64,000 nt of DNA from Pseudomonadota bacterium (GTDB lineage: Bacteria > Desulfobacterota > Desulfobacteria > Desulfobacterales > JAFDDL01). This document shows positions 5,851 through 25,354 of this stretch, piece after piece. The number at the start of each line of letters is the position of its first letter. Positions within the stretch are counted from its first letter, which is position 1. The notes beneath the pieces are model-generated. The model saw only the letters and a list, made by a program, of their open reading frames with translations. It had not been told where the DNA came from and did not search any database. The position numbers were made by a program, and so were the translations under genes. The DNA is taken from NCBI GenBank assembly GCA_043797445.1, contig JAZDPP010000187.1, positions 7,228 to 71,227 of the forward strand, given 5' to 3'.

Positions 5851-6378
5851 ATGGCCAAAGAAAGTTTGCAGCATACCCTTGACCGGGTAAGAGCTCCCAG
5901 GGTCCAGATCACTTATGATGTGGAGGTGGGGGGAGCGATTGAAATGAAGGAAATTCCTTTCGTGGTCGGGGTGCTGGCGGATCTGTCCGGAAAACCCGAT
6001 GAACCGCTTCCGAAGATGAAGGAGAGGAAATTTGTTGAAATCGATCGCGACAATTTTAACAATGTACTGGCCGGCATGAAACCGAGACTCGCCTACCGAG
6101 TGGATAACAAACTCACAAATGACGGCAGTCAGCTGGCGGTGGAACTCCGGTTTAAATCCCTGGATGATTTTCATCCCGAGCAGATTGCAAAACAGGTGGA
6201 CCCTCTTCGAAAGCTTATTGATGCAAGAGGCCGGCTTTCCGAGCTTCTCAATAAACTGGACGGGAATGATAAATTGGATGAACTGCTTCAGGATATCATT
6301 TCCAGCTCGGATTCCCTGGAAAAATTAGGCAAGGAAGCCGGTGTGGATAAAAAGAAAGACGAACCCACTAAGGAATAA
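5851..6378 (+). CDS. tssB: T6SS contractile sheath small subunit TssB (VipA)
   Basis: RVQITYDVEVGGAIEMKEIPFVVGVLADLSGKP and FKSLDDFHPEQIA are classic TssB motifs. SD AAAGGAGG upstream. Confidence 0.95.
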   Translation: MAKESLQHTLDRVRAPRVQITYDVEVGGAIEMKEIPFVVGVLADLSGKPDEPLPKMKERKFVEIDRDNFNNVLAGMKPRLAYRVDNKLTNDGSQLAVELRFKSLDDFHPEQIAKQVDPLRKLIDARGRLSELLNKLDGNDKLDELLQDIISSSDSLEKLGKEAGVDKKKDEPTKE

Positions 6379-6389
6379 AGGAGGGCGAG

Positions 6390-7883
6390 ATGGCAGAGAA
6401 AGAACAACAGGTCCAACCGGAAGCTGTGCAGGCTGTGGCAGCCGGGGGAGAAACAAGCCTTCTGGACAAGATCATTTCCGATGGACGCCTTGCCCGGGAG
6501 GAGAGTCAGCGGGACTTTGCAAAAGACGTCATCGGCGAATTCGTTTCCCAGATCATGGACGGCGCCATAACGGTTTCCAAAAATACCGAAGCCATGATTA
6601 CGGCCCGGATCAGCGCCATCGATTCCCTGATCTCCGACCAGCTGAATGAAATCATGCACCATCAGGATTTTCAAAAGCTGGAGGGATCCTGGAGAGGGCT
6701 ATCCTATCTGGTGCAGCAAAGCGAAACCGGGGAGAGACTTAAACTCAGGGTTATGAATGTGTCCAAAAAAGATCTTCTCAAGGACATGGAAAAGGCGGCC
6801 GAGTTTGACCAGTCCACCCTGTTCAAGAAAGTCTACGAAGAGGAGTTCGGCATGTTCGGCGGCGCGTCCTATGGCGCCCTGATCGGAGATTACGAATTCG
6901 GAAAACATCCCCAGGATCTGTCGCTATTGGAAAAAATTTCCCAGGTCGCCGCGGCTGCCCATGCACCGTTTATATCCGCCGCCGCGCCGGAAATTTTTAA
7001 TTTTGACAGTTTTACCGAACTGGGGGAACCGCGGGACCTGACGAAAATATTTCAGAGTATCGATTATGCCAAGTGGAAATCCTTCCGGGACTCGGAGGAT
7101 TCGCGATACGTTGCCCTGGCAATGCCCCATATTCTGATGCGGCTTCCCTATGGCAAAGCCAATGTCCCGGTCGAAACCTTTGATTTTGAGGAGCGGGTGG
7201 ACGGCACCGATCATAAGAAATATCTATGGGGAAATGCCGCCTACGCGCTGGGGACCCGTCTGACCGAAGCCTTTGCCAAATACCACTGGTGCGCCGCCAT
7301 TCGGGGCGTGGAAGGCGGGGGTCTGGTTCAGGGCCTGCCCGTGCATACCTTCAGCACGGATGAGGGGGATGTCGCCCTCAAATGCCCCACCGAAATCGCC
7401 ATTACCGACAGACGGGAAAAAGAGCTCGCCGATCTCGGTTTTGTTCCGCTGGTTCATTGCAAGGGCACCGACTATGCCGCCTTTTTCAGCACACAGACGG
7501 CTAACCGGCCCAAGCTCTACAGTACCGATTCCGCTAACGCCAACGCAAGACTTTCTTCCCAGCTCCAGTATATTCTCGCGGTCTCCCGATTTGCTCATTA
7601 CTTAAAGTCCATCATGCGGGACAAGATCGGCAGTTTCATGACCCGGGCCAATGCGCAGACATTTCTAAACGCCTGGATCAATAACTACACCCTTGGCGAT
7701 GATGATGCCAGTCAGGACATGAAGGCCAAATATCCGCTTCGGGAAGCCCGGGTCGATGTCAGTGAAATACCTGGTAAAACGGGTGCATACCGTGCGGTCG
7801 CCTTTTTAAAACCCCATTACCAGCTGGACGAACTGAGCGTCTCGCTACGGCTGGTTGCGGATCTTCCCCCACCGGCAAAGTGA
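6390..7883 (+). CDS. tssC: T6SS contractile sheath large subunit TssC (VipB)
   Basis: Motifs HHQDFQKLEGSWRGL, APFISAA, RLPYG...FDFEE...LWGNAAYA and a full C-terminal domain. 11 nt after tssB. Confidence 0.95.
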   Translation: MAEKEQQVQPEAVQAVAAGGETSLLDKIISDGRLAREESQRDFAKDVIGEFVSQIMDGAITVSKNTEAMITARISAIDSLISDQLNEIMHHQDFQKLEGSWRGLSYLVQQSETGERLKLRVMNVSKKDLLKDMEKAAEFDQSTLFKKVYEEEFGMFGGASYGALIGDYEFGKHPQDLSLLEKISQVAAAAHAPFISAAAPEIFNFDSFTELGEPRDLTKIFQSIDYAKWKSFRDSEDSRYVALAMPHILMRLPYGKANVPVETFDFEERVDGTDHKKYLWGNAAYALGTRLTEAFAKYHWCAAIRGVEGGGLVQGLPVHTFSTDEGDVALKCPTEIAITDRREKELADLGFVPLVHCKGTDYAAFFSTQTANRPKLYSTDSANANARLSSQLQYILAVSRFAHYLKSIMRDKIGSFMTRANAQTFLNAWINNYTLGDDDASQDMKAKYPLREARVDVSEIPGKTGAYRAVAFLKPHYQLDELSVSLRLVADLPPPAK

Positions 7884-11839: not shown

Positions 11840-14482
11840 ATGGCCATCTCAAATCTCAAATCCTTGATCGGAAAACTGAATACCGCCTGTCGCAAGAGCC
11901 TTGAATCCGCGGCGGGCCTCTGCCTGTCCCACACCCATTACGATGTGGAGCTGGAGCATTTTTTCATTAAGCTCCTGGATATTCAGGACACGGATTTTCA
12001 GAAAATTTTAAGATACTTTGAAATAAACGAGTCCCACCTGATCGGAGATCTTCTGGGGATTATCGAAAAATTCAAGACGGGAAACGCCCGTACCCCCGCC
12101 CTTTCTCCCAGAATTCCGCAGATGATGAAAGAGGCCTGGCTCGTCGCTTCAGTGGATTTTCAAGCCTCCGCCATTCGCTCCGGCCACATTCTGCTGGCAC
12201 TTCTTTCCAATCCGGAGTCGGCAAGAGGGCTCATCTCAAGCTCACCGCTGTTCAAAAAAATCTCGATGGAAACGCTGAAAGACGGTTTTGCCGATTTAAC
12301 CGCCGGTTCAGCGGAGGACAGTGAAGCGATTTCAAAAGCAGCGGAGGGTCCAGCCGCCGGAGGAACACCGGTTTCACACGGCAAGGGACAGGCCCTTGCG
12401 CAATACACCGTCAATCTCACCGCCAAAGCCAAAAAAGGGGAGATCGATCCGGTTCTCGGCCGTGATTTTGAAATCCGCCAGATGGTGGATATCCTCATCC
12501 GCCGGCGGCAAAACAACCCCATTCTCACAGGCGAGGCAGGGGTTGGAAAGACAGCCGTGGTGGAAGGATTTGCGCTCAGAATCGCCGAAGGGGATGTCCC
12601 GCCACCATTGCGGGGAGTCGCCATTCATACGCTTGATCTCGCCCTTCTTCAGGCCGGCGCCGGTATCAAGGGGGAGTTTGAGGAAAGACTCAAGCAGGTC
12701 ATCAGTGAGGTCAAGTCCTCGCCGGTGCCGATCATTCTCTTCATTGACGAGGCCCATACCCTGATCGGCGCCGGGGGATCGGCCGGCGCCGGGGATGCGG
12801 CAAATCTTCTGAAGCCCGCCCTCGCCCGGGGGGAATTGCGAACCATTGCCGCCACGACCTGGGCGGAATACAAGAAATACTTTGAAAAAGACGCCGCTCT
12901 TGCCCGCCGTTTTCAGGTGGTGAAAGTGGAAGAACCGGATGAACAAACCGCCATGGTCATGATGCGGGCCATCGCCCCCTTTCTGGAAAATCACCACAAG
13001 GTCATGATCACGGACGAGGCGCTGCGGGACTCGGTTCATCTTTCCCATCGCTATATCACGGGAAGGCAGTTGCCGGACAAGTCGGTCAGCGTTCTCGATA
13101 CCGCCTGCGCCCGGGTTGCCATCGGACTGACCACCAGTCCGCCGGCCGTCGAGGAGGCCACCCGGCGACTGGGGCAAATCGATCGGGAAACAAAACTTCT
13201 GGAGAAAGAGGCCCTGATGGGCCGGGAACATTCCGGGAAAATTGCATCTCTGGCGGCCGATCGGCTGGAACTTGAAAAATCGCTCGAAGTGCTGGAAAAG
13301 AAATGGAAGGCGGAAATGGAAGTTGCCGACCGTATTTTTGCCATCCAAAAGGATCTGCTGGAAACGCACCAAAAAGACCCGGCCGACCCGGTTCTGCCCC
13401 AAAAACAGGAAGAGCTTAAAACCGCCGAGGCAGAGCTTCTCACGGTTCAGGCGAATACTCCCCTGGTTGCCATCTCCGTTGACTCGGAAACCATATCCGA
13501 GGTCATTTCCGGTTGGACCGGCATTCCCACGGGCCGAATGCGCGCCGATGAAATCACCACCGTGCTGAATCTCGATAAACTCCTGGCGGAACGGGTGATC
13601 GGCCAGGATCATGGATTAAAAGCCATGGCCCAGACCATTCAGACCGCCCATGCCGGCATTGAAGATCCATCCAAACCCACCGGCGTTTTCATGCTGGTCG
13701 GTCCGAGCGGCGTCGGAAAAACGGAAACCGCTCTCGCCCTGGCGGATCTGTTATATGGTGGAGAGGAAAACGTCATTACCATCAATATGTCCGAATACCA
13801 GGAGGCGCATACCGTTTCCAGTCTCAAGGGATCTCCCCCGGGCTATGTCGGATACGGGGAAGGCGGTGTTCTCACAGAGGCGGTGCGACGCAGGCCCTAT
13901 AGCGTCGTTCTTCTCGATGAGGTGGAAAAAGCCCACAACGATGTCATGGAGCTTTTTTACCAGGTCTTTGACAAAGGAACACTGGAGGACGGGGAAGGCC
14001 GTCGGATCGATTTCAAAAACAATCTCATCATTCTCACCTCCAATCTGGGAACCGATACGATCATGAAACTCTGCGCCGACGAGGAGACGAAGCCCGATCC
14101 CGAGACCCTTGCCGAAACCCTGCGGCCTGATTTACAGAAGCACTTCAAACCGGCCTTCCTGGGCCGATTGAAGGTAATTCCCTATTACCCGATTTCGGAT
14201 GAAAATCTGCGATTTATTACCAGACTCAAACTCAACAAGGTGGTTAAACGGATGCGGGAGAATCGCAATACGGTTCTTACCTACGGCGATGATGTGGTGG
14301 AATCCATTGCCCGCCGCTGCACCGAGGTTGACAGCGGTGCGAGAAACATCGATCATATCATGTCTCATACCCTGATGCCGGAACTCAGCAGAGAGCTGCT
14401 GACCCGAATGGCGGCGGGGGAACCGATCAGCGAGGTGACGGTGTCGGTGGATGGGGACGGCTTTGTGTACAATATCAGGTAA
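11840..14482 (+). CDS. clpV: T6SS AAA+ disassembly ATPase ClpV (TssH)
   Basis: Clp N-domain and two AAA+ modules (GEAGVGKTA... and GPSGVGKTE...) with ClpB-like architecture, downstream of tssG. Confidence 0.95.
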   Translation: MAISNLKSLIGKLNTACRKSLESAAGLCLSHTHYDVELEHFFIKLLDIQDTDFQKILRYFEINESHLIGDLLGIIEKFKTGNARTPALSPRIPQMMKEAWLVASVDFQASAIRSGHILLALLSNPESARGLISSSPLFKKISMETLKDGFADLTAGSAEDSEAISKAAEGPAAGGTPVSHGKGQALAQYTVNLTAKAKKGEIDPVLGRDFEIRQMVDILIRRRQNNPILTGEAGVGKTAVVEGFALRIAEGDVPPPLRGVAIHTLDLALLQAGAGIKGEFEERLKQVISEVKSSPVPIILFIDEAHTLIGAGGSAGAGDAANLLKPALARGELRTIAATTWAEYKKYFEKDAALARRFQVVKVEEPDEQTAMVMMRAIAPFLENHHKVMITDEALRDSVHLSHRYITGRQLPDKSVSVLDTACARVAIGLTTSPPAVEEATRRLGQIDRETKLLEKEALMGREHSGKIASLAADRLELEKSLEVLEKKWKAEMEVADRIFAIQKDLLETHQKDPADPVLPQKQEELKTAEAELLTVQANTPLVAISVDSETISEVISGWTGIPTGRMRADEITTVLNLDKLLAERVIGQDHGLKAMAQTIQTAHAGIEDPSKPTGVFMLVGPSGVGKTETALALADLLYGGEENVITINMSEYQEAHTVSSLKGSPPGYVGYGEGGVLTEAVRRRPYSVVLLDEVEKAHNDVMELFYQVFDKGTLEDGEGRRIDFKNNLIILTSNLGTDTIMKLCADEETKPDPETLAETLRPDLQKHFKPAFLGRLKVIPYYPISDENLRFITRLKLNKVVKRMRENRNTVLTYGDDVVESIARRCTEVDSGARNIDHIMSHTLMPELSRELLTRMAAGEPISEVTVSVDGDGFVYNIR

Positions 14483-14522
14483 AAGTGGCCCTCCGTGGCC
14501 GCCTTTTTCAGGTGGGAAGACT

Positions 14523-15866
14523 ATGATGGTGACAGAAAGAGACTCGAATACAACACCCGGGGTGACACTTGAAATCGACGAGGCGCTTCACCTGGCTCTC
14601 AAACTTCACAAGGGCAATTGCCTGCCCGAAGCGGAACATCTCTATAAACTCATCCTGAAATCAGCGCCGGAGAATTTAAACGCCCTGCACTTTCTGGGTC
14701 TCCTCTGCCATCAGCAGAACCGGCATGAAGAAGCCGTTGCGTTGATCGAGCGCATCATCGTCTTATCGCCCGATAATGCGGATGCGCACAATAATCTGGG
14801 AAACGTGCTGGAGGGTCTGGGAAGAGGCGCGGAGTCGGAAGCCTGTTATCGTAAAGCCATTTCTCTCAACCCCGGCCACGGTCCCGCGCATAACAATCTG
14901 GGCGTTGTGCTCATGGCCCTAAACCGGTCGGTGGAAGCCGTCGAAGCCTATCGCAGCGCTGCCGAACTGGCGCCGAATTCCGCCGAATTCCGGTATAACA
15001 TGGGAAATGCGCTGCGAAAATCAGGCGATTTGGATGGCGCCATCAGTGCCTATCGGGAAGCGGTCTCTCTCGCCCCCGACTACGCCGTGGCCTGGCAGGG
15101 CCTGGCGCGAAGCTATCTGCTGGCGAACCGTCGTGAAGAGGCCGCCGACATGTTCGAAAAGTGGCTCGAAAAGGATCCGGGAAATCCGGTCATTCTTTTT
15201 CTAAAAGCCTCCTTCCTTGAAAAGGATGCGCCGGAGAGAGCGCCGAACCTTTACATCGAACAGGTGTTCGATGATTTAGCGAACAGCTTCGACAGCCACC
15301 TGATAGCGCATCTCGAATATCGCGCCCCCGCCCTCCTCACGGAAGCGCTTGCCGCCGCGATTCCCGAGCCGGCGGCAACACTCGATATCCTGGATGCCGG
15401 TTGCGGAACCGGTCTCTGCGCACCGCTTCTGCGTCCTTATGCCCGCTGTCTTTCCGGAGTCGATTTGTCCCCCGGCATGCTGGCAAGGGCAAGGGGACGA
15501 AAGATCTACGACGAGCTCATTCTTGCCGAACTGACGGATTTTCTCAATCAAAAATCCAAGGCCTTTGATATCATCGCCTCGGCGGACACCTTGTGTTACT
15601 TCGGTGTCCTGGAATCGGTCTTTAAGGCGGCTGCCGGCGCATTGAAATCCGATGGCATCCTGGCCTTTACCCTGGAAGATGCCGGAGATGACAGTGAAGG
15701 CTTCCGGCTCAATTCCCACGGCCGGTATGCCCACTCCAGATCCTATGTCAAGACCGCTCTTGAAGCAGCCGGTCTCGGGATTCATTCCATCTCATTTGCG
15801 ATCCTGCGAAAGGAGAACGAGGAACCGGTACCCGGACAGATAGTGGTGTCACGAAAAAGGAGATGA
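14523..15866 (+). CDS. TPR-repeat protein fused to a class I SAM-dependent methyltransferase
   Basis: About 6 TPR units (ALHFLGLLCHQQNRHEEA..., AHNNLGNVL..., AHNNLGVVL...), then SAM motif I LDAGCGTGL. Start placed at ATG 14523, since the ORF-track start 14451 overlaps clpV. Confidence 0.8.
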   Translation: MMVTERDSNTTPGVTLEIDEALHLALKLHKGNCLPEAEHLYKLILKSAPENLNALHFLGLLCHQQNRHEEAVALIERIIVLSPDNADAHNNLGNVLEGLGRGAESEACYRKAISLNPGHGPAHNNLGVVLMALNRSVEAVEAYRSAAELAPNSAEFRYNMGNALRKSGDLDGAISAYREAVSLAPDYAVAWQGLARSYLLANRREEAADMFEKWLEKDPGNPVILFLKASFLEKDAPERAPNLYIEQVFDDLANSFDSHLIAHLEYRAPALLTEALAAAIPEPAATLDILDAGCGTGLCAPLLRPYARCLSGVDLSPGMLARARGRKIYDELILAELTDFLNQKSKAFDIIASADTLCYFGVLESVFKAAAGALKSDGILAFTLEDAGDDSEGFRLNSHGRYAHSRSYVKTALEAAGLGIHSISFAILRKENEEPVPGQIVVSRKRR

Positions 15867-15870: not shown

Positions 15871-17433
15871 ATGCCGGATCCCATCACATTTGGTAAACTT
15901 GAGTTTAATCTGGTCGCGGACATGGACACTAATGCCTCGGCGCCGGATCCGCAAGACCCTTTCCGTATCCTCATCATGGGAGATTTTACGGGACAAGAGA
16001 ATCGCGATATTATCTCATCGGGCAACCCATTGGCAAACCAACGGCCAATCCGGGTGGATCGGGATAATTTCGATTCGCTGATAGGAAAACTCGGCGTTAA
16101 ATTAGCGCTGCCCGTGCTGGGGCCAACCGCCCCGCCGGTCGTTATCGGGTTTTCCGAACTGGAAGATTTTCATCCGGATCATCTCTTTGATCGATTGGAA
16201 GTATTCCAGGCCTTGCGGGACACCAGAACGAGTCTTGAGAATCCCGCCACTTTCGCTGCCGTTGCCGGCGGCCTGAAAGGGGTGGAAACCCGCGCTGAGA
16301 AAACAATGTCACCGTCCGCATCGAAAAATGCCCCCGCCGGAAAACCCGACCCCGTTTCCGGAAATCTTCTGGACGAGATCATTGCCCAAACGCCGGGGGA
16401 ACAGACCGGAACCGATTCCATCGCCCCCCCATCGGAATGGCACTCTTTTCTGCGGGAAATTGTGAGGCCCCATCTCGTATCCGATCCTCATCCCCGGCAG
16501 GCCGAAATGATAGCCGCCGTGGATTCCGCGGCCGGAGAACTGATGCGCCTGATATTGCATCACCCCGATTTTTCAGCGTTGGAGGCGGCCTGGAAAGCGC
16601 TCTATTTTCTCGTCTCCCGACTGGAAACGGATGTCCTGCTGAAACTCTATCTGCTGGACATCTCCAAAACGGAGCTTGAGAGAGATCTGGGAAGCGTCGA
16701 GAACTTACGGTCAACCGGTCTTTTCCGGCTTCTGGTTGAACAAACTCTTGAGACTCCCGGCACTGCCCCCTGGGCGGTGCTGATCGGCAACTACCGTTTT
16801 GAGCAAAATGTCGATGATGTCGAATTTCTGGGCCGGATAGCTAAAATTGCCAAGGCATCCGGAGCCCCCTTTATTGCCGCGGCAAGCGATAAAATGGTGT
16901 GCCAAAACTCCCTCGCCCAAACGCCTGATCCGGATGACTGGGAACCGGCCGCCAGACCGGATGCGATTCAAGCCTGGCTGGCGCTTCGGAAGCTCCCCGA
17001 GGCCGCCTATATCGGCCTTGCTCTGCCCCGCTTCCTGCTTCGGCTGCCATACGGCGCGGACACCGACCCCGTGGAGGCTTTCGATTTCGAGGAAATATCT
17101 TCTTCTTCGGATCACGAGAGTTTTCTCTGGGGAAATGCCGCTTTCGCCTGCGCACTCCTTCTGGGGCAGTCCTTCAGCTCGAACGGCTGGCAACTCAGAC
17201 CCGGCGATCTGCTCGATGTGACCAACCTTCCGCTTTATCTATACAAAAAGGATGCGGAATCGAAGCTTTTGCCCTGCGCCGAGACCCTCCTTACCCAGCG
17301 CGCGGCGGAAATGATCCTCGATAACGGGCTCATGCCACTGTTGTCTTTTCTCGACCAGGACACCGTCCGACTTGCCCGCTTTCAGGCTATCACGACGCCG
17401 CTCACCCGGCTGGCGGGCCGGTGGGAGGAATAA
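15871..17433 (+). CDS. Sheath-like paralog: TssB-like N-terminus fused to a C-terminally truncated TssC-like body
   Basis: By-eye alignment to the locus's own TssB: VDRDNFDSLIGKLGVKLAL, FSELEDFHPDH. By-eye alignment to its TssC: HHPDFSALEAAWKALYFLV, GAPFIAAAS, LRLPYGADTDPVEAFDFEE, LWGNAAFA. SD AAGGAG lies 8 nt before the ATG, and the gene starts 4 nt after the upstream stop. Confidence 0.75.
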   Translation: MPDPITFGKLEFNLVADMDTNASAPDPQDPFRILIMGDFTGQENRDIISSGNPLANQRPIRVDRDNFDSLIGKLGVKLALPVLGPTAPPVVIGFSELEDFHPDHLFDRLEVFQALRDTRTSLENPATFAAVAGGLKGVETRAEKTMSPSASKNAPAGKPDPVSGNLLDEIIAQTPGEQTGTDSIAPPSEWHSFLREIVRPHLVSDPHPRQAEMIAAVDSAAGELMRLILHHPDFSALEAAWKALYFLVSRLETDVLLKLYLLDISKTELERDLGSVENLRSTGLFRLLVEQTLETPGTAPWAVLIGNYRFEQNVDDVEFLGRIAKIAKASGAPFIAAASDKMVCQNSLAQTPDPDDWEPAARPDAIQAWLALRKLPEAAYIGLALPRFLLRLPYGADTDPVEAFDFEEISSSSDHESFLWGNAAFACALLLGQSFSSNGWQLRPGDLLDVTNLPLYLYKKDAESKLLPCAETLLTQRAAEMILDNGLMPLLSFLDQDTVRLARFQAITTPLTRLAGRWEE

Positions 17434-17537: not shown

Positions 17538-19616
17538 ATGCCTATTCAGGAAAACAGACTGATTTCAATTGAAACGCCCTTGGGGCAGGATGCCCTGCTG
17601 CTCAGTGAGTTCAGCGGCACGGAAAGCATCTCCAGGCTTTTTAATTATCGGCTTACCCTTCTTTCCGAAAATCACCGTATCCCCTTCGCGGACATTATCG
17701 GCAAAAACGTTACGCTATCCATTGATCTTGCCGGGGGTGAGAAACGGTTCATTAATGGTTTGATCGCCTCCTTTTCTCAAAGCGGCAGCGGCACCGTAAA
17801 ATTGGAAGCGGGCTATTTTTCCCAATATTCGGCGACCCTCGTTCCCTGGCCCTGGCTACTGGCGAAAACAGCCGACATGCGGATATTTCAAGAACGTCCC
17901 GTGCCGGAAATCATTCAACAGGTTTTTACGGATAATGGCTTTTCGGATTTTTCACTTCGGCTTCATGGGCCACACAATAAAAGAGTATATTGCGTGCAAT
18001 ACCGGGAGACCGACTTTAACTTTGTATCCCGGTTGATGGAAGAAGAGGGCATCTATTATTTTTTTGAGCACGAATCGGGTAAACACACGATGGTTCTGGC
18101 CGATTCATCCTCGGAGCACCCGGTCTGTCCGAAGCAGGAGACCGCCCGATATCAGCAAACTGAAGGAGGCGTTATTCTTGATGAGGATGTCATCCATTCC
18201 CTTGAAGTTCAGCAGGAAATAAGAGTCGGTAAATTCTCGTTGAATGATTATAACTTTGAAACGCCTTCGGCAAACCTCCTCGCGAATGCCGTCAGTACGA
18301 TCGAGCTGGGTCCCGGCGAACGCGAAATATATGACTATCCCGCGGAGTTTGCCAACCGGTCGGAAGGCGATATACTCGCCAATATCCTCATGCAAGGTGA
18401 GGAAGCGCAAATTACTTCGCTTTCCGGATCGAGCAACTGTCGCGCCTTTTGCACCGGATACCGGTTTGATTTGAAAGACTATTTTCGGGAAGATATGAGT
18501 GACAAGCCCTATGTGCTGACGGAAATTTCGCACATGGCCGCTTCAAATATCAAGGATAGCGGCAGTGAAGGAGGGGCATTCTACAGCAACAGTTTCTCCT
18601 GCATTCCGCATGAAATCCCTTTCCGCCCTCAACAATTGACACCCAAACCCATTGTCGAAGGCGTCCAGACGGCAACCGTGGTGGGAACCGATAGTGATAA
18701 AGAGATCCATACGAATGAGTATGGTCAGGTCAAGGTGCGGTTTCATTGGGACCGGGAAAAGAACAGTTCCTGCTGGATCCGCGTCAGCCAGGCATGGGCG
18801 GGTTCGGGCTGGGGGGGAATGATTATTCCCCGCGTCGGCCAGGAGGTAATCGTTGATTTTCTGGAAGGGGATCCGGACCGTCCGATTATCACCGGACGGG
18901 TGTATAACGCGACCCAAACGGTTCCCTACGCGCTGCCCGGAGAAAAGACCAAAAGCACCCTCAAGTCCTACTCATCTCCCGGAGGGGGGGGCTTCAACGA
19001 GATCCGCTTCGAGGACAAGAAGGGCTCGGAGCAGCTCTTCATCCATGCCGAAAAACAACTGGACAACCGGGTGAAGCAGGATTGTCTTGAATGGATCGGA
19101 AACGAGCGTCATCTCATCGTCATTAAGGACCAGTTCGAAAAGGTCAGTGGCGACAATCATATGGAGGTGGTTGGGGACCAGAACCAGAAGATCGGCGGGT
19201 CTGTCTCCCTGACCACCGGAGAGGCCCTGCATCAGAAAGTAGGTACCCTGCATGCGCTCGATGCGGGTCAGGAGATCCATCTCAAAGCCGGAATGAAGGT
19301 GATAATCGAAGCGGGGCTGCAAATCTCGCTGAAAGTAGGTGGAAATTTTATCGATATCGGTCCCACCGGGATATCCATCACGGGGACGCCGGCGGTGAAG
19401 ATCAACAGCGGCGGATCCGCCGGATCGGGCTCGGGCGCCTCGCCGGATGCGCCCACGGCGCCGAAGGAAGCGGACAAGGCGGAGCCGGGGAAGATGGTTC
19501 AAGCCACTGGGGCATCGAGCACCAAAGCCCCGCCTCCACCACCAGCGCCTCCCGGTAAGCAGGCCGCGTCCTTGAAGGAGGCCGCGAAGAACGCCGCGGC
19601 CTTATGCGAAGCCTGA
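17538..19616 (+). CDS. vgrG: T6SS spike protein VgrG (TssI) with a Pro/Ala-rich C-terminal tail
   Basis: gp27/gp5-like regions (CVQYRETDFNFVSRLMEEEGIYYFFEH; RVSQAWAGSGWGGMIIPRVGQEVIVDFLEGDPDRPIITGRVYN). Tail ...APPPPPAPPGKQAASLKEAAKNAAALCEA. Confidence 0.95.
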   Translation: MPIQENRLISIETPLGQDALLLSEFSGTESISRLFNYRLTLLSENHRIPFADIIGKNVTLSIDLAGGEKRFINGLIASFSQSGSGTVKLEAGYFSQYSATLVPWPWLLAKTADMRIFQERPVPEIIQQVFTDNGFSDFSLRLHGPHNKRVYCVQYRETDFNFVSRLMEEEGIYYFFEHESGKHTMVLADSSSEHPVCPKQETARYQQTEGGVILDEDVIHSLEVQQEIRVGKFSLNDYNFETPSANLLANAVSTIELGPGEREIYDYPAEFANRSEGDILANILMQGEEAQITSLSGSSNCRAFCTGYRFDLKDYFREDMSDKPYVLTEISHMAASNIKDSGSEGGAFYSNSFSCIPHEIPFRPQQLTPKPIVEGVQTATVVGTDSDKEIHTNEYGQVKVRFHWDREKNSSCWIRVSQAWAGSGWGGMIIPRVGQEVIVDFLEGDPDRPIITGRVYNATQTVPYALPGEKTKSTLKSYSSPGGGGFNEIRFEDKKGSEQLFIHAEKQLDNRVKQDCLEWIGNERHLIVIKDQFEKVSGDNHMEVVGDQNQKIGGSVSLTTGEALHQKVGTLHALDAGQEIHLKAGMKVIIEAGLQISLKVGGNFIDIGPTGISITGTPAVKINSGGSAGSGSGASPDAPTAPKEADKAEPGKMVQATGASSTKAPPPPPAPPGKQAASLKEAAKNAAALCEA

Positions 19617-19702
19617 CCGCACTGATTACCGGCCCGTGGGGCTGGAACATCGATTGCAAAGAGGCATCCGCACCATTTAATCGTTTTTCGGAGTGTCAAA
19701 AC

Positions 19703-20239
19703 ATGATTGAGTCGACGATGGTTCAAGCAGTGAAAGCACAGCTTTTTTCAACACCGGGAACCCAGGTTTTCACCATCCTGGACGGTGCTTCCGTACCCGA
19801 TTTGCTGGCCAACATGGCCACTTTCAACCCGGAGCACATCTGTCTCTACCGGGGCGAACTGGCGCCCGACATGGCGGAGGTGGCCCCCTATCTGGCTTTT
19901 ATGGAACGTGACACCCCCTTTACCGACTGGGTCATTACCCATGGATGGGGAAATCATTGGGGGATATTTGGGGTGACCCGGGTGGATTTGAAGGAGCTTC
20001 GCAGGCATTTCCGTAAATTCCTGATGGTGTATGACGAATCCGCCAAGTCACTCTATTTCCGGTACTATGATCCGCGGGTTCTGCGGGTATATTTGCCGAC
20101 CTGCAATGCGCAAGAGTTAAAGACCGTCTTCGGACCGGTCATGTTCTATCTGATGGAAGATGAGGACTCGAAGGTCCGCCGAAAGTTCATGTTTATCAAC
20201 AATGCGCTGCGGGAAGATCAGATGGCGCTCGGGAAATAA
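19703..20239 (+). CDS. DUF4123-family T6SS adaptor/chaperone (Tap/TEC-like)
   Basis: ILDGASVPDL...PYLAFM...HWGIFGVT...LRRHFRKFLMV...LYFRYYDPRVLRVYLPTC fits the DUF4123 pattern. Start is ambiguous: ATG 19703, or 19604 overlapping vgrG. Confidence 0.75.
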   Translation: MIESTMVQAVKAQLFSTPGTQVFTILDGASVPDLLANMATFNPEHICLYRGELAPDMAEVAPYLAFMERDTPFTDWVITHGWGNHWGIFGVTRVDLKELRRHFRKFLMVYDESAKSLYFRYYDPRVLRVYLPTCNAQELKTVFGPVMFYLMEDEDSKVRRKFMFINNALREDQMALGK

Positions 20240-20329
20240 TACCCTGGCGTGGCCGATACGATGATCAAGGCCGAAATCCCCCTCTCAACAACGCACGATA
20301 AAGCAACACTATAGCGGGAGAAAATCGAT

Positions 20330-20719
20330 ATGCCCAAGCAGGTAGTCAACGGCGCCATGCTCCAATGCAGCTTCGGTGTGGCCCCGAGCAGTCTGATCGT
20401 GCTGCCGGTCAACATGGTGAATGCTGGCGGTGTACCGGCGGCCAATATCATGGACCACAAACCGATGGTGAATATCATGCCATTCGGAATGTGCAGCTCA
20501 CCGGCGAATCCGACCGTAGCCGCCGCGACAACCGCGGCTTTGGGAGTATTGACGCCGATGCCGTGCATACCGAATACGATGGCGCCCTGGACTCCCGGTT
20601 CCCCAATGGTGCAAATCGCCAACATGCCGGCACTGAATGACTCCTCCAAATGCATGTGCGCCTGGGCGGGTGTCATTTCGATCACCTTCCCCGGACAGAT
20701 AACCACTGATATCCCCTGA
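20330..20719 (+). CDS. DUF4280 PAAR-like spike-tip protein
   Basis: VVNGAMLQCSFGVAPSSL...PAANIMDHKPMVNIMPFGMCSS...TPMPCIP...ALNDSSKCMCAWAGVISI is the characteristic DUF4280 Cys pattern. Confidence 0.8.
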   Translation: MPKQVVNGAMLQCSFGVAPSSLIVLPVNMVNAGGVPAANIMDHKPMVNIMPFGMCSSPANPTVAAATTAALGVLTPMPCIPNTMAPWTPGSPMVQIANMPALNDSSKCMCAWAGVISITFPGQITTDIP

Positions 20720-20735
20720 CCACTGGGGAGTTACC

Positions 20736-21758
20736 TCATCTTTTCAACATTTTCTTCATCATGGCGCCCAGCTGTTTCACCCCTTTTCCCTGAGATGCGC
20801 CGGAGCTTGCATTCCCCCCCTCCCGATCAGATGCCGTTTGAGATGCTTCCGGCACTTCCACCTCGATTTCCGCAAGGCGCCCTCCCCCCAGAAACTTAAA
20901 ATCCGGTCCCTGGTCACTCAGCGAGAGACGATAGTCGGTATCCAGCATCCCCTGACCTTCAACGCTCCGGCCATTTATCCGGACCACATTTTTTCCGGTC
21001 AGATCTTTTACCCAGTATTGTTCCTGATGGTAAAAAATCAGCGCATGACGTTCAAAAACAGCGGGATGATCGAGCCGGAAATCACATTGAGCCCCTCTTC
21101 CGATCGTCACCGGAAGGACATTATAGGCTTGCAGGGTCGGGCCGTACTGCACCACAAGGGGCTTTTTAACCTGTTGAATCGGAAAATCCCCTGAATGCGG
21201 CGCCGAAGCCGGTTCGAAAACAGGCGGTTTCGGAGGAAGCGGCGGAGTGAGGGACGGAACCGAAACCGGTTGCGCTGAAACAACGGGTCGTTCCGGAGGC
21301 GGGGGCGACAGGGGCACGGGCCGTTCCGAAGGATATTCCGGCGCGGCCGGCGGTGATGAAACCCGGATCGGCCCGGAGGCCATGGGCGCGGCAACGGCGG
21401 CCGGTTGAACTGCATGGCCGACATCCGCAACGCCTTCCAGCAGTTGAGATAGAAAACTGACTTTGGGCCCGCCCTCGGCGAAAACAAGGATATCCCCATC
21501 CTTAAGAATGGCCTCTTTCACCTGTTTGCCGTTTACGAATGTGCCGTTAGTGCTCTGATCCATCAGCATAAAGCGATTGCCCTCACGAACAATGCGAGCG
21601 TGCACACGGGATACAATAGCCAAATCCTTGGGAAAGCAGACCTGACAGGTGGCGCTCCGGCCGATAAGAATCTCCGGCTGATGGAACTCCTGAATTTCCC
21701 CTTTCAGCGGGCCTTCCATATGAATCAGTTGAATAACGATGGTGGGTGGTTGTTTCAT
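20736..21758 (-). CDS. fha: Double-FHA-domain protein (T6SS Fha/TagH-like phosphothreonine reader)
   Basis: Two FHA cores: IGRSATCQVCFPKD..VSRVHARI...STNGTFVNGK and IGRGAQCDFRLDHP..ERHALI...GKNVVRINGR. They are joined by a Pro-rich linker. Start placed at the MKQPP ATG 21758 with AAAGGA upstream. Confidence 0.85.
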   Translation of the reverse strand: MKQPPTIVIQLIHMEGPLKGEIQEFHQPEILIGRSATCQVCFPKDLAIVSRVHARIVREGNRFMLMDQSTNGTFVNGKQVKEAILKDGDILVFAEGGPKVSFLSQLLEGVADVGHAVQPAAVAAPMASGPIRVSSPPAAPEYPSERPVPLSPPPPERPVVSAQPVSVPSLTPPLPPKPPVFEPASAPHSGDFPIQQVKKPLVVQYGPTLQAYNVLPVTIGRGAQCDFRLDHPAVFERHALIFYHQEQYWVKDLTGKNVVRINGRSVEGQGMLDTDYRLSLSDQGPDFKFLGGGRLAEIEVEVPEASQTASDREGGNASSGASQGKGVKQLGAMMKKMLKR

Positions 21759-22023
21759 GATCCTTTTGCTCTGTAAACGGTTGAAGAGGCCAGCGACTCG
21801 CAAATATCAACATATGAGTATTTATAGATAATAATTGCGCTTACATGTCAAGCAGTTTCATTGCGCCATGGAAGGCGGAGCGGTTCGCATGGAATAAGAA
21901 CCGGAGTGCCGTCAATCCGCCGGTTTTGGAGAAATCAATTGATTTTATAATGCATTCCCGTTAGATAATAGACAGTCTGATATTTCGATATGCTAATTAC
22001 CTTCTTTTACGGTGCGAGCGGCC

Positions 22024-22907: not shown

Positions 22908-23873
22908 ATGATTATTTATTTACGACCGCTTAAGCTGTTAGCCCGGCATATGATTCTATGGATAACCCTCATCATGGTTGTCGAACCGGGTTACAGCGCC
23001 ACAGAAGCATTGGAGAAACGGATTCCCTTATCCGTCGGTGAAATGACCGATCTGCTGATAAGATGGTGGGGAGATTCCGGGTATCGAATCCAACGTACGG
23101 ATCCGGAGATGGGACATGTTCGGCTCCGTGCCATAAAAGACCCGGAAAGCTGGCAGGTGGATCTTTCTCCTCACTCCGCTTTGGAAACCCAAGTGTCGGC
23201 CAGTTTTTCAGGAATGAACCCCGAGGTGCGTCTACAACAATTCTGGGATCACATCTCACTATACCGCCATAACCCGTCAACGCAAGCGCCGCGGAATTCC
23301 GAGCGGAACATACCGGCGGCCGTTCTTTCCAGAATTGAATCGGTGGTCTGCATCAATGCCCGATCGGATGAAAATAACGTCCAGTTTTCAGGCTTCATTA
23401 TCGATACCAATGGGCTCGTTCTCTGCACGGCGCACGATCTGGAAAACAGCCAGCATATCACCGTCACGCTTTTCGATGGCCGGGAGGTAATGGCGAAGCT
23501 TCTTTTCAAGGACCCCCACGTGGATCTTTCGATTCTTCAAATTGCCTTGAAAACAAAGGCTGCGATCCATCTTTCCGGGGGCAGAAATCTCCTGGGAATG
23601 GGCGAAACCATTTTTTCGGTGGGATGTCCCAACAATCTGAGGGACACCGTATATGCGGGAACCATCAACGCCCCGCCACGAAAAATGAATGATCAGCCAC
23701 TATGGCAGGCAAGCATGGAAATCCATCATGGCAGCAGCGGCAGCCCCGTTTTTGACGTCAATGGGAACATCGTTGCCGTGGTCAAGGGAAGATATCGCGG
23801 CACCACCACTACGGGATTTTTAATCCCGATGGAAACCATCTTTAATTTTTTAAAAGAGAAAAATCCGTTATGA
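22908..23873 (+). CDS. Secreted or membrane-anchored trypsin-like (S1/DegP-type) serine protease without PDZ
   Basis: N-terminal hydrophobic segment. Catalytic-triad context TAHD (His), DLSILQI (Asp), GSSGSPVFD (Ser). ATGA overlap with the kinase start. Confidence 0.8.
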   Translation: MIIYLRPLKLLARHMILWITLIMVVEPGYSATEALEKRIPLSVGEMTDLLIRWWGDSGYRIQRTDPEMGHVRLRAIKDPESWQVDLSPHSALETQVSASFSGMNPEVRLQQFWDHISLYRHNPSTQAPRNSERNIPAAVLSRIESVVCINARSDENNVQFSGFIIDTNGLVLCTAHDLENSQHITVTLFDGREVMAKLLFKDPHVDLSILQIALKTKAAIHLSGGRNLLGMGETIFSVGCPNNLRDTVYAGTINAPPRKMNDQPLWQASMEIHHGSSGSPVFDVNGNIVAVVKGRYRGTTTTGFLIPMETIFNFLKEKNPL

Positions 23874-25090
23874 ATTACGGTCGATATGAAATAGAAAAAG
23901 AGTTGGGAAGAGGCGCCATGGGTGTCGTCTATCAGGCCCATGATCCTCAGATTGACCGGCGGGTTGCGCTCAAGGTTCTTCGATCGGACCGGGTCACCAG
24001 TGAAGATTTTGCACAGCGGTTTTTAAAGGAAGCCCGGGCCATCGGCCGGCTTTCCCATCCGTATATCGTCACGGTTTTCGACGTGGGGCATGACCATGGG
24101 ACAGTCTATATTGCAATGGAGTTTTTGGATGGCAGGCCCCTGGATGAAATCCTTCGGGAAAAAGCACTCCCTCTCAAGGAACTCATGAATATCGGCATTC
24201 AGGTCGCTCAAAGTCTTGACTATGCCCATGGGCAAGGCATTGTTCACAGGGATATCAAGCCTTCCAATATCATGCTCACGTCCGAAGGGAGTGTAAAGCT
24301 TACCGACTTCGGAATCGCCCGAATTGAGGATCCAGCCGCCGCCCAGCTCACCCAGGCTGGTGAAATTCTGGGAACCCCCAGCTATATGTCCCCCGAGCAG
24401 GTAAGGGGCCAAACGGTGGATCGCCGATCCGACATTTACTCTCTTGGGGTGATTCTCTATGAAATCTCGACCGGTCGAAGACCTTTTACCGGAAAAAGCA
24501 TCGCTTCCATTTTCAATGCAATTACCAGCGAAACACCGCAGGATCCGATGGCGGTGGAACCTTTTGTCGCACGCGGCGGATCGAAAGCCCTTTCCGAGCT
24601 GATAGTTAAATGTCTGAGCAAAGCGCCGGAGGACCGGTTCCAGAGTGGAAAAATTCTGGCGCAAGCATTATCGACATGCCTTATCGAAGCCGAACCCGCC
24701 GGGAAAGCCGAGAACACACTTCCTCCCAAAAAATCCGGAAAAACCGCTTGGTATGCCGTCCTTGCCGGTTGTATATTAGCTGCCATCATCGGCTTTTATT
24801 GGTTTCAATCCATACGGAAAGTTCCGGCGCCCTTGCCCACGCCGATTATCGAGCCCAAGCCGGTTACGCCCGCACAGCTGTCTGCATTGAACGTGAGCAG
24901 CAATCCGGCCAGCGCTCAAGTATTTATAGACGGATCATTTAGAGGAAACACTCCCCTGAAACTTGATCTTCCGATCGGGAAATACGAAGTCCGGGTAAGC
25001 CTCGCCGATTATTACGAGTATGAAGCACAGGTTCAACTGAAGGACTCGGGTGAATTACCGTTATTGGTTCGCCTGATACCGATGAAATAG
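23870..25090 (+). CDS. ppkA: Transmembrane Hanks-type Ser/Thr kinase with C-terminal PEGA domain (PpkA-like)
   Basis: GRGAMGVVY, VALK, HRDIKPSN, DFGIA and SPEQ kinase motifs. TM segment AWYAVLAGCILAAIIGFYWF. PEGA-like LNVSSNPASAQVFIDGSFRGNTPLKLDLPIGKYEVRV. Confidence 0.9.
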   Translation: MNYGRYEIEKELGRGAMGVVYQAHDPQIDRRVALKVLRSDRVTSEDFAQRFLKEARAIGRLSHPYIVTVFDVGHDHGTVYIAMEFLDGRPLDEILREKALPLKELMNIGIQVAQSLDYAHGQGIVHRDIKPSNIMLTSEGSVKLTDFGIARIEDPAAAQLTQAGEILGTPSYMSPEQVRGQTVDRRSDIYSLGVILYEISTGRRPFTGKSIASIFNAITSETPQDPMAVEPFVARGGSKALSELIVKCLSKAPEDRFQSGKILAQALSTCLIEAEPAGKAENTLPPKKSGKTAWYAVLAGCILAAIIGFYWFQSIRKVPAPLPTPIIEPKPVTPAQLSALNVSSNPASAQVFIDGSFRGNTPLKLDLPIGKYEVRVSLADYYEYEAQVQLKDSGELPLLVRLIPMK

Positions 25091-25143
25091 CACCGCCCGT
25101 GGGGGGGAGCTATTAGCTGTTTGTTAGGTGGGGGTGAGAGAGA

Positions 25144-25199
25144 GGTTAGAGGTTAGAGGTTAGAGGTTAGAGGTTAGAGGTTAGAGGTTAGAGGTTAGA
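25144..25199. repeat. Perfect tandem heptamer array (GGTTAGA)x8
   Basis: Read directly from the sequence: 8 uninterrupted copies, beginning 54 nt after the kinase stop. Confidence 0.95.
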
Positions 25200-25274
25200 A
25201 TTTTGTTAAAAATAAAGAGCAGTTGTCAACAAAAAGAACGAAATGAAGCGAATGGTTAACAGCATTATTTAAGG

Positions 25275-25337: not shown

Positions 25338-25354
25338 GCCACAGGAGGTAAACA

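What the first reader, a model, noticed from the sequence alone, without database searches (positions are those of the whole stretch)
15871..17433. Extra sheath paralog: TssB-like head fused to a TssC-like body lacking the C-terminal ~110-120 aa
The locus has canonical tssB and tssC. It also encodes a 520-aa protein between clpV and vgrG that resembles both.
- Residues ~30-125 align by eye to TssB: RVDRDNFDSLIGKLGVKLAL vs EIDRDNFNNVLAGMKPRLAY, and FSELEDFHPDHLFDRLEVFQALRDTR vs FKSLDDFHPEQIAKQVDPLRKLIDAR.
- A Pro/Ala/Ser-rich linker follows.
- The rest aligns to TssC: LILHHPDFSALEAAWKALYFLV vs EIMHHQDFQKLEGSWRGLSYLV, GAPFIAAAS vs HAPFISAAA, LRLPYGADTDPVEAFDFEE..LWGNAAFA vs MRLPYGKANVPVETFDFEE..LWGNAAYA.
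- It stops just after the strand equivalent to TssC GFVPLVHCKG.... It therefore lacks the C-terminal TssC helices and strand, and also the TssB C-terminal helix.

In sheath structures those elements supply the inter-protomer handshake. A covalently fused, handshake-deficient protomer could act as a sheath cap, initiator, length regulator or assembly poison. I do not recognise this as one of the 13 core Tss proteins or as a named Tag protein.
Basis: partly seen in the sequence, partly recalled or inferred. Interest (0 to 1): 0.8.

Follow-up and report, generated by a model that had tools for sequence, protein, structure and literature searches.

The report
Handshake-less fused TssB–TssC sheath paralog
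This type VI secretion locus encodes, besides its normal sheath genes, a conserved single-chain copy of the two sheath proteins that has lost the domain needed to build a sheath but keeps the peptide that recruits the recycling ATPase ClpV; the family is widespread, has no dedicated name and is untested, and probably caps or marks sheaths.

Summary
ORF 15871-17433 (+, 520 aa) aligns to TssB residues 1-~135, then a disordered linker, then TssC residues 5-377. It ends where the gp25-like C-terminal domain of TssC (PF18945, the handshake domain) would begin. No missing C-terminus is readable in any frame.

It is not an artefact. More than 120 full-length homologs at 50-90% identity share the architecture and the C-terminal ...LAGRW end. 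Relatives occur in at least 544 species genomes of Desulfobacterota, Acidobacteriota, Nitrospirota, Planctomycetota and Methylomirabilota, usually inside T6SS loci. Longer variants occur in cultured Rhodobacterales and Burkholderiales.

It is not the Rhizobiales extra TssC (ImpD/TssC40), which keeps the gp25-like domain. Databases call it "TssC/ImpC". I found no paper describing it.

New here: the disordered linker carries LLDEII, the published ClpV-docking motif of TssC. It is present in 111 of 120 family members and changes type together with the cognate TssC.

Best reading, inferred and not shown: a non-propagating sheath-protomer mimic that docks on sheath subunits or ends and presents a ClpV handle, acting as a cap, terminator or marker. 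Verdict: new variant of a known kind, interest about 0.66.

The parts
15871..17433 (+). Whole gene (called FUS below): 520-aa single-chain TssB-like + TssC-like protein without the gp25-like domain
   Evidence: family conservation
15871..15930 (+). N-terminal arm (res 1-20, MPDPITFGKLEFNLVADMDT). It aligns with the TssB N-terminal beta-strand region (RVQITYDVE), which is the TssB donor strand of the sheath handshake
   Evidence: Alignments. F7 and V15 are >=90% conserved. The role of the TssB N-terminal strand is taken from PMC5807055. That this arm acts as a donor here is inferred
15925..16242 (+). TssB-like (VipA) head, res 19-124
   Evidence: PF05591 E 2e-11; PDB TssB/VipA chains E 1e-9 to 2e-12; hhalign probability 98.4
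16270..16428 (+). Variable, Pro/Ala/Ser-rich linker predicted to be disordered (res 134-186)
   Evidence: pLDDT <50 in both AF2 models; poorly conserved columns
16366..16383 (+). LLDEII motif (res 166-171), the counterpart of the ClpV-N-binding motif in the TssC N-terminal helix
   Evidence: Aligned to TssC 24-LLDKII-29 by hhalign. The motif is present in 111/120 family members against 3.6% of shuffled linkers, and in 25/25 cognate TssC N-termini. LLDEIM/LLDEII is defined as the ClpV-binding motif in PMC4239648. Binding here is inferred
16429..17409 (+). TssC-like body (res 187-513): TssC helices alpha2/alpha3 plus the domain-2 core (PF05943). It ends at the PF05943/PF18945 boundary
   Evidence: Foldseek top hits are T6SS TssC chains 5n8n_B, 5urx, 3j9g (E 1e-19 to 3e-22)
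17410..17424 (+). Conserved C-terminal end LAGRW (res 514-518), 2 residues before the stop codon
   Evidence: Nearly invariant L514, G516, R517, W518. Almost every one of 78 locus-encoded homologs ends within 0-10 residues of GRW. Function unknown
5851..6378 (+). Canonical tssB of the same locus (175 aa)
   Evidence: TIGR03358 204 bits, above cut-off
6390..7883 (+). Canonical tssC (497 aa, PF05943 + PF18945; N-terminal LLDKII)
11840..14482 (+). clpV/tssH (880 aa), the proposed partner of the LLDEII motif
   Evidence: Pfam AAA_2, AAA_lid_9, ClpB_D2-small. The interaction is inferred
14451..15866 (+). TPR + class-I SAM methyltransferase gene. It overlaps the end of clpV by 32 nt and ends 4 nt before FUS, so it is probably co-transcribed
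17538..19616 (+). vgrG, the downstream neighbour

Best explanation
Shown:
- The ORF is a genuine, conserved accessory gene of type VI secretion loci.
- It encodes, in one chain, a derivative of the TssB-TssC sheath protomer.
- It keeps the TssB N-terminal arm and TssB core. It keeps the N-terminal helices of TssC, including the LLDEII ClpV-docking motif, which sits on a ~50-residue disordered tether. It keeps the TssC domain-2 core.
- It lacks the whole gp25-like inner domain (domain 1). In real sheaths that domain supplies the two acceptor strands and the C-terminal donor strand of the handshake. From memory, not tested here, it also contacts the Hcp tube.

Inferred:
- Because it cannot accept the arms of a next subunit, it cannot propagate a sheath.
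- It most likely docks on TssB/TssC subunits, through its retained N-terminal arm and domain-2/3 surfaces. The likely sites are a free sheath end or off-pathway TssBC oligomers. There it would act as a non-propagating (chain-terminating or capping) subunit.
- In this position it would display an always-exposed ClpV handle, so that the capped end or aberrant assembly is recognised by ClpV.
- Net effect: control of where and how far the sheath polymerises, and of its recycling.
For: Architecture and truncation. The fold is confirmed by an AF2 model (pLDDT 75, pTM 0.77) and by Foldseek hits to TssC chains.

Real and selected:
- 120 or more homologs at 50-90% identity have the same length and the same end.
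- About 980 representative clusters at 50% identity match the N-terminal 212 aa at E<=1e-10.
- At least 544 species genomes encode a relative.

T6SS linkage:
- 57 of 77 loci carry T6SS core genes within 10 kb or less. The orders are clpV-(MTase)-FUS-vgrG in Desulfobacterota and FUS-tssB-tssC-hcp-tagJ-tssA-tssEFG-clpV in Acidobacteriota.
- A canonical tssC is also present in 25 of these loci and a canonical tssB in 23. The protein is therefore an addition, not a replacement.

Handshake logic: PMC5807055 defines the acceptor strands b11/b12 and donor b13 in the TssC C-terminal domain, and donor b1 at the TssB N-terminus. FUS lacks the first three and keeps a conserved N-terminal arm aligned to b1.

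ClpV handle:
- LLD is >=90% conserved inside an otherwise variable disordered linker.
- The motif is in 111/120 members against 3.6% of shuffled linkers, and in 25/25 cognate TssCs.
- LLDEIM/LLDEII is the published ClpV-N binding motif (PMC4239648).

Co-variation: in Eleftheria and Leisingera the TssC has the HsiC1-type (D/E)F(A/S)(S/A)LL motif. Their FUS proteins carry LDDFARL-like linker motifs plus ELAALL-type tail motifs.

Fusion evidence: in three Rhodobacterales genera the FUS module is in frame behind a complete TssB, joined by an acidic repeat linker. This ties it physically to the sheath surface.
Against: - No interaction, localisation or phenotype data exist for any member.
- No multimer modelling could be run.
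- The AF2 model packs the C-terminal tail confidently against the body (pLDDT 84-94). There is therefore no sign of a second free donor arm, and one arm may be too little for stable end-docking.
- T6SSs already have a distal cap (TssA is present at 4430-5785), and many T6SSs work without this protein.
- Ten of 77 loci are orphans far from T6SS genes.
- In TagJ-containing classes the ClpV-TssC contact is not simply motif-to-N-domain (PMC4239648), and this locus has tagJ.
- The LLDEII helix could equally be a structural part of domain 3 rather than a docking peptide.
Confidence: 0.4

Rival explanations
1. A soluble regulator or adaptor of ClpV (with or without TagJ). As a monomeric mimic of a contracted-state protomer, it would titrate, pre-activate or localise ClpV through the exposed LLDEII helix, without docking on sheaths.
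For: - The LLDEII motif is conserved on a disordered tether.
- The motif type co-varies with the cognate TssC.
- Alpha- and betaproteobacterial variants multiply similar short acidic helical motifs, 2 to about 34 copies, as expected for avidity towards a hexameric ATPase.
- The gene often follows clpV directly.
Against: - A docking peptide alone would not need about 450 residues of conserved TssB/TssC core, yet that core is under strong conservation (66% mean column identity).
- In Rhodobacterales the module is fused to a full TssB, which should incorporate into sheaths.
Confidence: 0.22
2. An assembly factor or chaperone. It would template or stabilise newly made TssB-TssC heterodimers or the first ring at the baseplate, or prevent premature Hcp-independent polymerisation, and would leave before or during elongation.
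For: - It retains the TssB/TssC domain-2 interface in one chain.
- It sits next to baseplate/spike genes in some taxa: tssK-FUS in Eleftheria and FUS-vgrG in Desulfobacterota.
- The different extra TssC of Agrobacterium (TssC40) is essential for Hcp secretion. This shows that sheath paralogs can be obligatory assembly parts (PMC3702570).
Against: - An initiator ring would have to accept the arms of the next ring. That needs the gp25-like domain, which FUS lacks and TssE already provides.
- There is no evidence of contact with baseplate proteins.
Confidence: 0.12
3. A cargo- or spike-related protein (an adaptor, or a secreted substrate) that happens to be built from sheath parts. The idea comes from its position beside vgrG and a DUF4123 adaptor gene.
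For: The gene lies immediately upstream of vgrG in the window and in many Desulfobacterota and Rhodobacterales loci.
Against: - In Acidobacteriota it lies upstream of tssB-tssC, far from vgrG.
- In Ca. Brocadia it ends the operon with no vgrG nearby.
- It has no toxin, PAAR, MIX or adaptor domain.
- Its sequence is far more conserved than is typical for effector-linked genes.
Confidence: 0.05
4. A true polymerising sheath subunit that forms an alternative sheath or an outer sheath layer.
For: It has a sheath-protein fold and occurs in a T6SS locus.
Against: - It lacks the entire inner domain that holds every known contractile sheath together.
- A canonical tssB/tssC pair sits in the same locus wherever enough flanking sequence is held to see one (tssC in 25 of 77 loci, tssB in 23).
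Confidence: 0.04
5. An assembly artefact, or a decaying pseudogene of a duplicated tssBC pair.
For: None beyond the unusual architecture.
Against: - Identical architecture, length and C-terminal motif occur in hundreds of independent assemblies across phyla, including complete genomes.
- No remnant of the missing domain is present in any frame.
- The reading frame is intact and has a ribosome-binding site.
Confidence: 0.01

Closest known systems
Canonical T6SS sheath protomer TssB/TssC (VipA/VipB, HsiB/HsiC; PDB 5n8n, 5urw, 3j9g)
   Same: - Homologous over TssB 1-~135 and TssC 5-377.
- Same domain-2 fold.
- Same N-terminal LLDEII-type helix.
- Same conserved HHPDF...W, RLPYG, FEE and LWGN motifs.
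   Different: - One chain instead of two.
- Lacks the gp25-like domain 1 (TssC 378-497, PF18945) and the last ~40 residues of TssB.
- About 30% identity to TssC, whereas orthologous TssCs of the same loci are 65-98% identical to the window's TssC.
- Scores below the NCBIfam equivalog cut-offs.
Extra TssC of group-5 T6SS (A. tumefaciens Atu4340 TssC40 / Rhizobium ImpD)
   Same: - A second sheath-derived gene inside a T6SS operon.
- It is annotated simply as TssC.
- Its function is unexplained (PMC3702570; PMC5813230).
   Different: - ImpD-type proteins keep PF05943 + PF18945.
- They lack the N-terminal ~60 residues of TssC.
- They have no TssB module.
- In these respects they are the opposite kind of truncation.
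- TssC40 is experimentally essential for Hcp secretion. Nothing is known for FUS.
Tail terminator / cap proteins of contractile tails (T4 gp15, Afp16/Pvc16), and the T6SS TssA cap with its TagA/TagB/TagJ partners
   Same: The proposed role is the same: ending, stabilising or marking the end of a sheath polymer.
   Different: - No sequence or fold relationship (one search returns only sheath proteins).
- The resemblance is functional and hypothetical. It is recalled from general knowledge and was not tested here.
Specialised sheath paralogs of extracellular contractile injection systems (Afp2/3/4, Pvc2/3/4)
   Same: Duplicated sheath genes with position-specific roles in one machine.
   Different: - Those paralogs keep the handshake domain and are incorporated as sheath layers (general knowledge).
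- FUS lacks that domain.

Membership tests
TssC / VipB contractile sheath large subunit (TIGR03355; PF05943 + PF18945) | Full-length match to the equivalog model above its curated cut-off | tested here: not met
   TIGR03355: 228.7 bits against a cut-off of 271.5, with only model positions 5-343 of 473 matched. The locus TssC scores 729 bits
TssC / VipB contractile sheath large subunit (TIGR03355; PF05943 + PF18945) | N-terminal sheath domain PF05943 | tested here: met
   E 1.9e-68, residues 212-500; hhalign to TssC 5-377, probability 100
TssC / VipB contractile sheath large subunit (TIGR03355; PF05943 + PF18945) | C-terminal gp25-like handshake domain PF18945 (acceptor strands plus C-terminal donor strand) | tested here: not met
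   No PF18945 hit. The protein ends at the TssC residue 377 equivalent. No remnant in any frame. The domain is absent in all 120 aligned homologs
TssC / VipB contractile sheath large subunit (TIGR03355; PF05943 + PF18945) | Polymerises with TssB around Hcp into a contractile tube | not testable with these tools
   Needs biochemistry or cryo-EM. Judged unlikely from the missing domain
TssB / VipA contractile sheath small subunit (TIGR03358; PF05591) | Full-length equivalog match | tested here: not met
   TIGR03358: 40.9 bits against a cut-off of 97.25
TssB / VipA contractile sheath small subunit (TIGR03358; PF05591) | VipA domain present | tested here: met
   PF05591: 44.4 bits against a gathering score of 24, residues 19-124; hhalign probability 98.4
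ImpD / TssC40-type extra TssC (group-5 T6SS) | PF05943 + PF18945, with no TssB module and no TssC N-terminal helices | tested here: not met
   The R. anhuiense ImpD homolog has PF05943 12-323 and PF18945 333-442 with no VipA domain. FUS has the reverse set of features
ClpV-N substrates carrying the LLDEI(M/I) motif (VipB, HsiC2, HsiC3 class) | LLDEII-type motif in a helix N-terminal to the TssC core | tested here: met
   Residues 166-171 are LLDEII, aligned to TssC LLDKII. The motif definition is from PMC4239648
ClpV-N substrates carrying the LLDEI(M/I) motif (VipB, HsiC2, HsiC3 class) | Physical binding to the cognate ClpV N-domain groove | not testable with these tools
   Needs a binding assay or a complex model

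The most novel reading that the evidence does not exclude
The family is a previously unrecognised structural or regulatory component of T6SS in many non-model phyla. It would be a dedicated sheath chain-terminator or end-marker made from a handshake-less TssB-TssC protomer. It would set sheath length or end state and serve as the landing pad for ClpV. Its activity might be tuned by the protein methyltransferases or acetyltransferase encoded next to it. In Rhodobacterales it would be tethered to a TssB subunit by a multivalent acidic motif array.
Probability: 0.3. Interest if true: 0.82.

Novelty: new variant of a known kind. Interest (0 to 1): 0.66.

Why it matters
How T6SS sheath polymerisation is stopped, how sheath ends are recognised, and how ClpV tells apart the sheaths it should dismantle are only partly understood. 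They have been studied in a few proteobacterial models. This work identifies a large family, hidden under the annotation "TssC/ImpC", whose sequence predicts a subunit that can bind but not propagate and that carries the ClpV-docking peptide. That gives a concrete, testable candidate for end control or quality control of the sheath. The family occurs in cultured Roseobacter-group bacteria and in Eleftheria terrae (the latter recalled as the teixobactin producer), so genetics and imaging look feasible. If the protein turns out to be only a soluble ClpV modulator, it would still be a new kind of T6SS accessory protein. It would also be an annotation trap worth fixing, because T6SS detection tools could count it as a second tssC.

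Tried and rejected
1. Frameshift or artefact. tblastn of the missing TssC C-terminus, TssB C-terminus and TssC N-terminus against the window found only the canonical genes. Rejected.

2. Identity with the Agrobacterium/Rhizobium extra TssC (TssC40/ImpD). I fetched a Rhizobium imp locus and found that ImpD keeps PF18945 and lacks a VipA module. Rejected.

3. C-terminal LAGRW tail as a relic of the TssC C-terminal donor strand (cognate TssCs end ...LSVSLRLVADLPPPAK). There is no convincing similarity, and AF2 packs the tail against the body. Not supported, and dropped as an argument.

4. LLD motif derived from the TssB C-terminal KLDELLQDII rather than from the TssC N-terminus. hhalign places it on the TssC N-terminal helix. 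The TssB origin is rejected.

5. First AF2 run with 25 sequences gave a poor model (pLDDT 60). It was replaced by a 120-sequence run.

6. Literature searches for any description of a natural TssB-TssC fusion or truncated TssC paralog found only the group-5 extra tssC.

7. Many apparent full-coverage tblastn hits in plasmids (E. coli, Burkholderia, Vibrio and others) are just adjacent tssB and tssC genes joined by the tool. They are not family members.

8. One translate call (79) was made in the wrong frame and gave nothing.

9. Model coordinates are not exposed. I therefore could not check whether the N-terminal arm pairs with the C-terminal tail in the model.
Full report
**1. What is at the coordinates**

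ORF 15871-17433 (+) starts at an ATG preceded by a GGAG ribosome-binding site and encodes 520 aa. I call it FUS below.

It lies in a complete-looking T6SS locus:
- tssM (7-2793, cut by the window edge), tagF, tagJ/impE, tssA
- tssB (5851-6378), tssC (6390-7883), hcp, tssE, tssF, tssG
- clpV (11840-14482)
- a TPR + SAM-methyltransferase gene (14451-15866)
- FUS
- vgrG (17538-19616) and a DUF4123 adaptor gene
- then fha, pppA, a trypsin-like protease gene and ppkA

GC content is uniform across this stretch.

**2.

- Pfam finds T6SS_VipA (res 19-124, E 2e-11) and the VipB N-domain (res 212-500, E 1.9e-68) but not VipB_2. The locus TssC has both VipB domains.
- NCBIfam matches only positions 5-343 of the 473-position TssC model and positions 20-125 of the 160-position TssB model. 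Both are below the equivalog cut-offs.
- BLASTP gives 32% identity to TssC 74-374 and 25% identity to TssB 36-129.
- A family profile hits all solved T6SS sheaths, with the large subunit at E 1e-75 to 1e-35 and the small subunit at E 1e-12 to 1e-6.
- Profile-profile alignment fixes the boundaries: FUS 1-~135 = TssB 1-~135, and FUS 143-513 = TssC 5-377.
- Missing are TssB ~136-175 and TssC 378-497, the latter being the gp25-like domain.
- Nothing resembling the missing parts is encoded in any other frame of the window. Only 104 bp separate the stop codon from vgrG.
- An AF2 model built on 120 homologs (pLDDT 75, pTM 0.77) has a folded TssB-like/TssC-like body and a disordered stretch at 134-186. 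Its best structural matches are TssC chains of the P. aeruginosa, M. xanthus and V. cholerae sheaths.

**3. It is a family, not an accident**

- The protein database returns 120 or more full-length homologs at 50-90% identity. All have PF05591 + PF05943, all are about 517 aa, and they are named "ImpC", "sheath large subunit" or "hypothetical".
- They end uniformly in ...RFQSIA.P...LAGRW.
- The N-terminal 212 aa alone match about 980 clusters (50% identity) at E<=1e-10.
- In one-genome-per-species data at least 544 genomes encode a relative. The best 80 are full length and come from Desulfobacterota, Nitrospirota, Acidobacteriota, Planctomycetota, Methylomirabilota and Binatia.
- Of 77 such loci, 57 contain T6SS core genes, 10 with 8 kb or more on both sides contain none, and 10 are too short to judge.
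- Gene order is clpV-(methyltransferase)-FUS-vgrG in Desulfobacterota. It is FUS-(methyltransferases)-tssB-tssC-hcp-tagJ-tssA-tssEFG-clpV in Acidobacteriota. In the complete genome of Ca. Brocadia pituitae FUS closes the tssB...clpV operon.
- A canonical tssB and tssC are present alongside wherever enough flank is available.
- By similarity of its T6SS genes (TssC 97-98% identical to MAG loci L001/L002), the window most likely comes from a Desulfobacteraceae-type bacterium.

**4. Relatives in cultured bacteria**

Plasmid records show FUS-like genes at 32-35% identity in Leisingera, Ruegeria, Phaeobacter, Parasedimentitalea and Qingshengfaniella, and in Eleftheria terrae.

- A Burkholderiales subfamily of about 600 aa (Aquabacterium, Variovorax, Xylophilus, Roseateles and others) replaces the LAGRW end. 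In its place is a ~100-aa acidic tail carrying one to three D.EL.ALL.SL motifs, the last at the very C-terminus.
- In three Rhodobacterales genera the reading frame is open far upstream of the annotated start. It begins with a complete TssB copy, including the SQKFIARNRAPRVQ segment that binds TagJ in P. aeruginosa (PMC4239648).
- After the TssB copy comes a 400-900-aa acidic region with about 11-32 spaced D..(V/L/I)L.(G/D)L motifs, then the FUS module, then an acidic tail ending ...ELAALL.DL.
- None of these variants has a gp25-like domain.

**5. Not the known extra TssC**

- A. tumefaciens has two consecutive tssC genes. TssC40 (Atu4340/ImpD) is required for Hcp secretion, and its role is unexplained (PMC3702570; PMC5813230).
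- A Rhizobium ImpD homolog has PF05943 + PF18945, no VipA module and no TssC N-terminal helices.
- FUS is therefore a different and, in a sense, complementary derivative.
- Eight full-text searches found no description of a natural TssB-TssC fusion or of a TssC lacking its C-terminal domain.

**6. What the anatomy implies**

In the P. aeruginosa sheath the handshake sheet is made of four strands (PMC5807055):
- two acceptor strands of the TssC C-terminal domain
- the C-terminal donor strand of a neighbouring TssC
- the N-terminal donor strand of a neighbouring TssB

FUS lacks the first three. It keeps a conserved N-terminal arm that aligns with the TssB donor strand. It therefore cannot be extended by a further subunit. 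At most it can attach.

Second, the only conserved element in the disordered linker is LLD(E/Q)(I/V)(I/L):
- It is LLDEII in the window, at res 166-171.
- It is present in 111 of 120 members against 3.6% of shuffled linkers.
- It is aligned to, and of the same type as, the N-terminal helix motif of all 25 cognate TssCs.
- This is the motif shown to bind the ClpV N-domain in V. cholerae VipB (LLDEIM). It is conserved in HsiC2 and HsiC3 (PMC4239648).
- Where the cognate TssC instead has the HsiC1-type (D/E)F(A/S)(S/A)LL motif (Eleftheria, Leisingera), FUS carries LDDFARL-like and ELAALL-like motifs.
- This co-variation rests on few lineages, but it argues that the motif is used and has the same partner as the TssC N-terminus.

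**7. Best explanation and rivals**

I favour a non-propagating sheath-protomer mimic. It would dock on TssB/TssC at a free end or on off-pathway oligomers and present a permanently exposed ClpV handle. This would cap or terminate polymerisation and flag the site for ClpV. My confidence is about 0.4 for the whole statement. The identity part is near certain and the mechanism is inferred.

Rivals:
- A purely soluble ClpV/TagJ modulator (0.22).
- An assembly chaperone or nucleator (0.12). A true initiator role is unlikely, because that role needs the acceptor domain and TssE supplies it.
- A spike- or cargo-related role (0.05).
- A real polymerising subunit (0.04).
- An artefact (0.01).

Weak points:
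- No experimental data exist for any member.
- No multimer model could be run.
- The C-terminal tail is predicted to be packed rather than free.
- TssA already caps T6SS sheaths.
- Some copies are orphans away from T6SS genes.
- The locus has TagJ, and in TagJ classes ClpV recruitment can differ.

**8. Verdict**

It is a large, conserved family with no name of its own, no dedicated NCBIfam model among the matches and no description in the literature I could search. It is a new variant of a known kind (a sheath-protein derivative) rather than a categorically new system. Its function is open but directly testable in cultured carriers.

Noticed in passing
window 14451-15866 (+); L030, L037, L042, L044, L045, L056, L058 and others: Predicted protein-modifying enzymes recur next to FUS. 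In the window it is a TPR + class-I SAM methyltransferase that overlaps clpV by 32 nt and ends 4 nt before FUS. In Acidobacteriota and Nitrospirota they are a PKMT-like protein-lysine methyltransferase (PF10119 + PF21782), a HemK/PrmC-like methyltransferase with an HPPY motif, and sometimes a GNAT acetyltransferase. At least one lies within 4 kb in 21 of 77 loci. This may point to post-translational modification of FUS or of the sheath.
   Followed up: partly
L081 11782-16746; L085 ~4592-8743; L086 ~5009-8650: In Leisingera, Ruegeria and Qingshengfaniella the reading frame containing FUS is open from a complete second TssB copy, through a 400-900-aa acidic region with about 11-32 spaced D..(V/L/I)L.(G/D)L motifs. 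RefSeq starts the CDS inside the repeats, which is probably too far downstream.
   Followed up: partly
P0270-P0389; L083 11980-13758: The Burkholderiales subfamily (about 600 aa) ends in a disordered acidic tail with one to three D.EL.ALL.SL motifs. The last is at the extreme C-terminus (EMDPELAALLKSLG). The same terminal motif occurs in the Rhodobacterales proteins.
   Followed up: partly
L011, L036, L052, L058, L064, L065, L068-L071: These are orphan FUS genes. With 8 kb or more on both sides there is no T6SS core gene. Neighbours that were scanned are metabolic or transport genes: 2-oxoacid dehydrogenase E2, lipase, a histidine kinase, a MacB-type permease. Whether these genomes have a T6SS elsewhere is unknown.
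   Followed up: partly
window 19604-20239 (+) and 20218-21803: A DUF4123 adaptor (weak Tla1-like match) follows vgrG and overlaps it by 13 nt, but no effector-sized gene follows on the same strand. The next ORFs on the list lie on the opposite strand: a 162-aa ORF (20218-20706, not examined) and then the double-FHA gene. The cognate effector may lie elsewhere.
   Followed up: no
window 22908-31478: Around ppkA/pppA sit several envelope-associated genes. They are a trypsin-like protease gene, a kinase gene with a PEGA domain, a gene for a TPR + AhpC/TSA + CsgG/FlgT-like protein (25355-27301), a small CsgG/LpoB-like gene (27319-27813), and an 819-aa ORF on the minus strand with 10 MopE-type metal-binding repeats plus a CsgG-like region (29019-31478). 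They might be a sensor module feeding the threonine-phosphorylation pathway, in place of TagQRST.
   Followed up: no
L082 7360-8748 (Rhizobium anhuiense plasmid): The ImpD/TssC40-type extra TssC is a TssC that lacks the first ~60 residues, which include the ClpV-binding helices, but keeps both sheath domains. It is the reverse truncation of FUS. RefSeq names both kinds simply tssC / sheath large subunit.
   Followed up: yes
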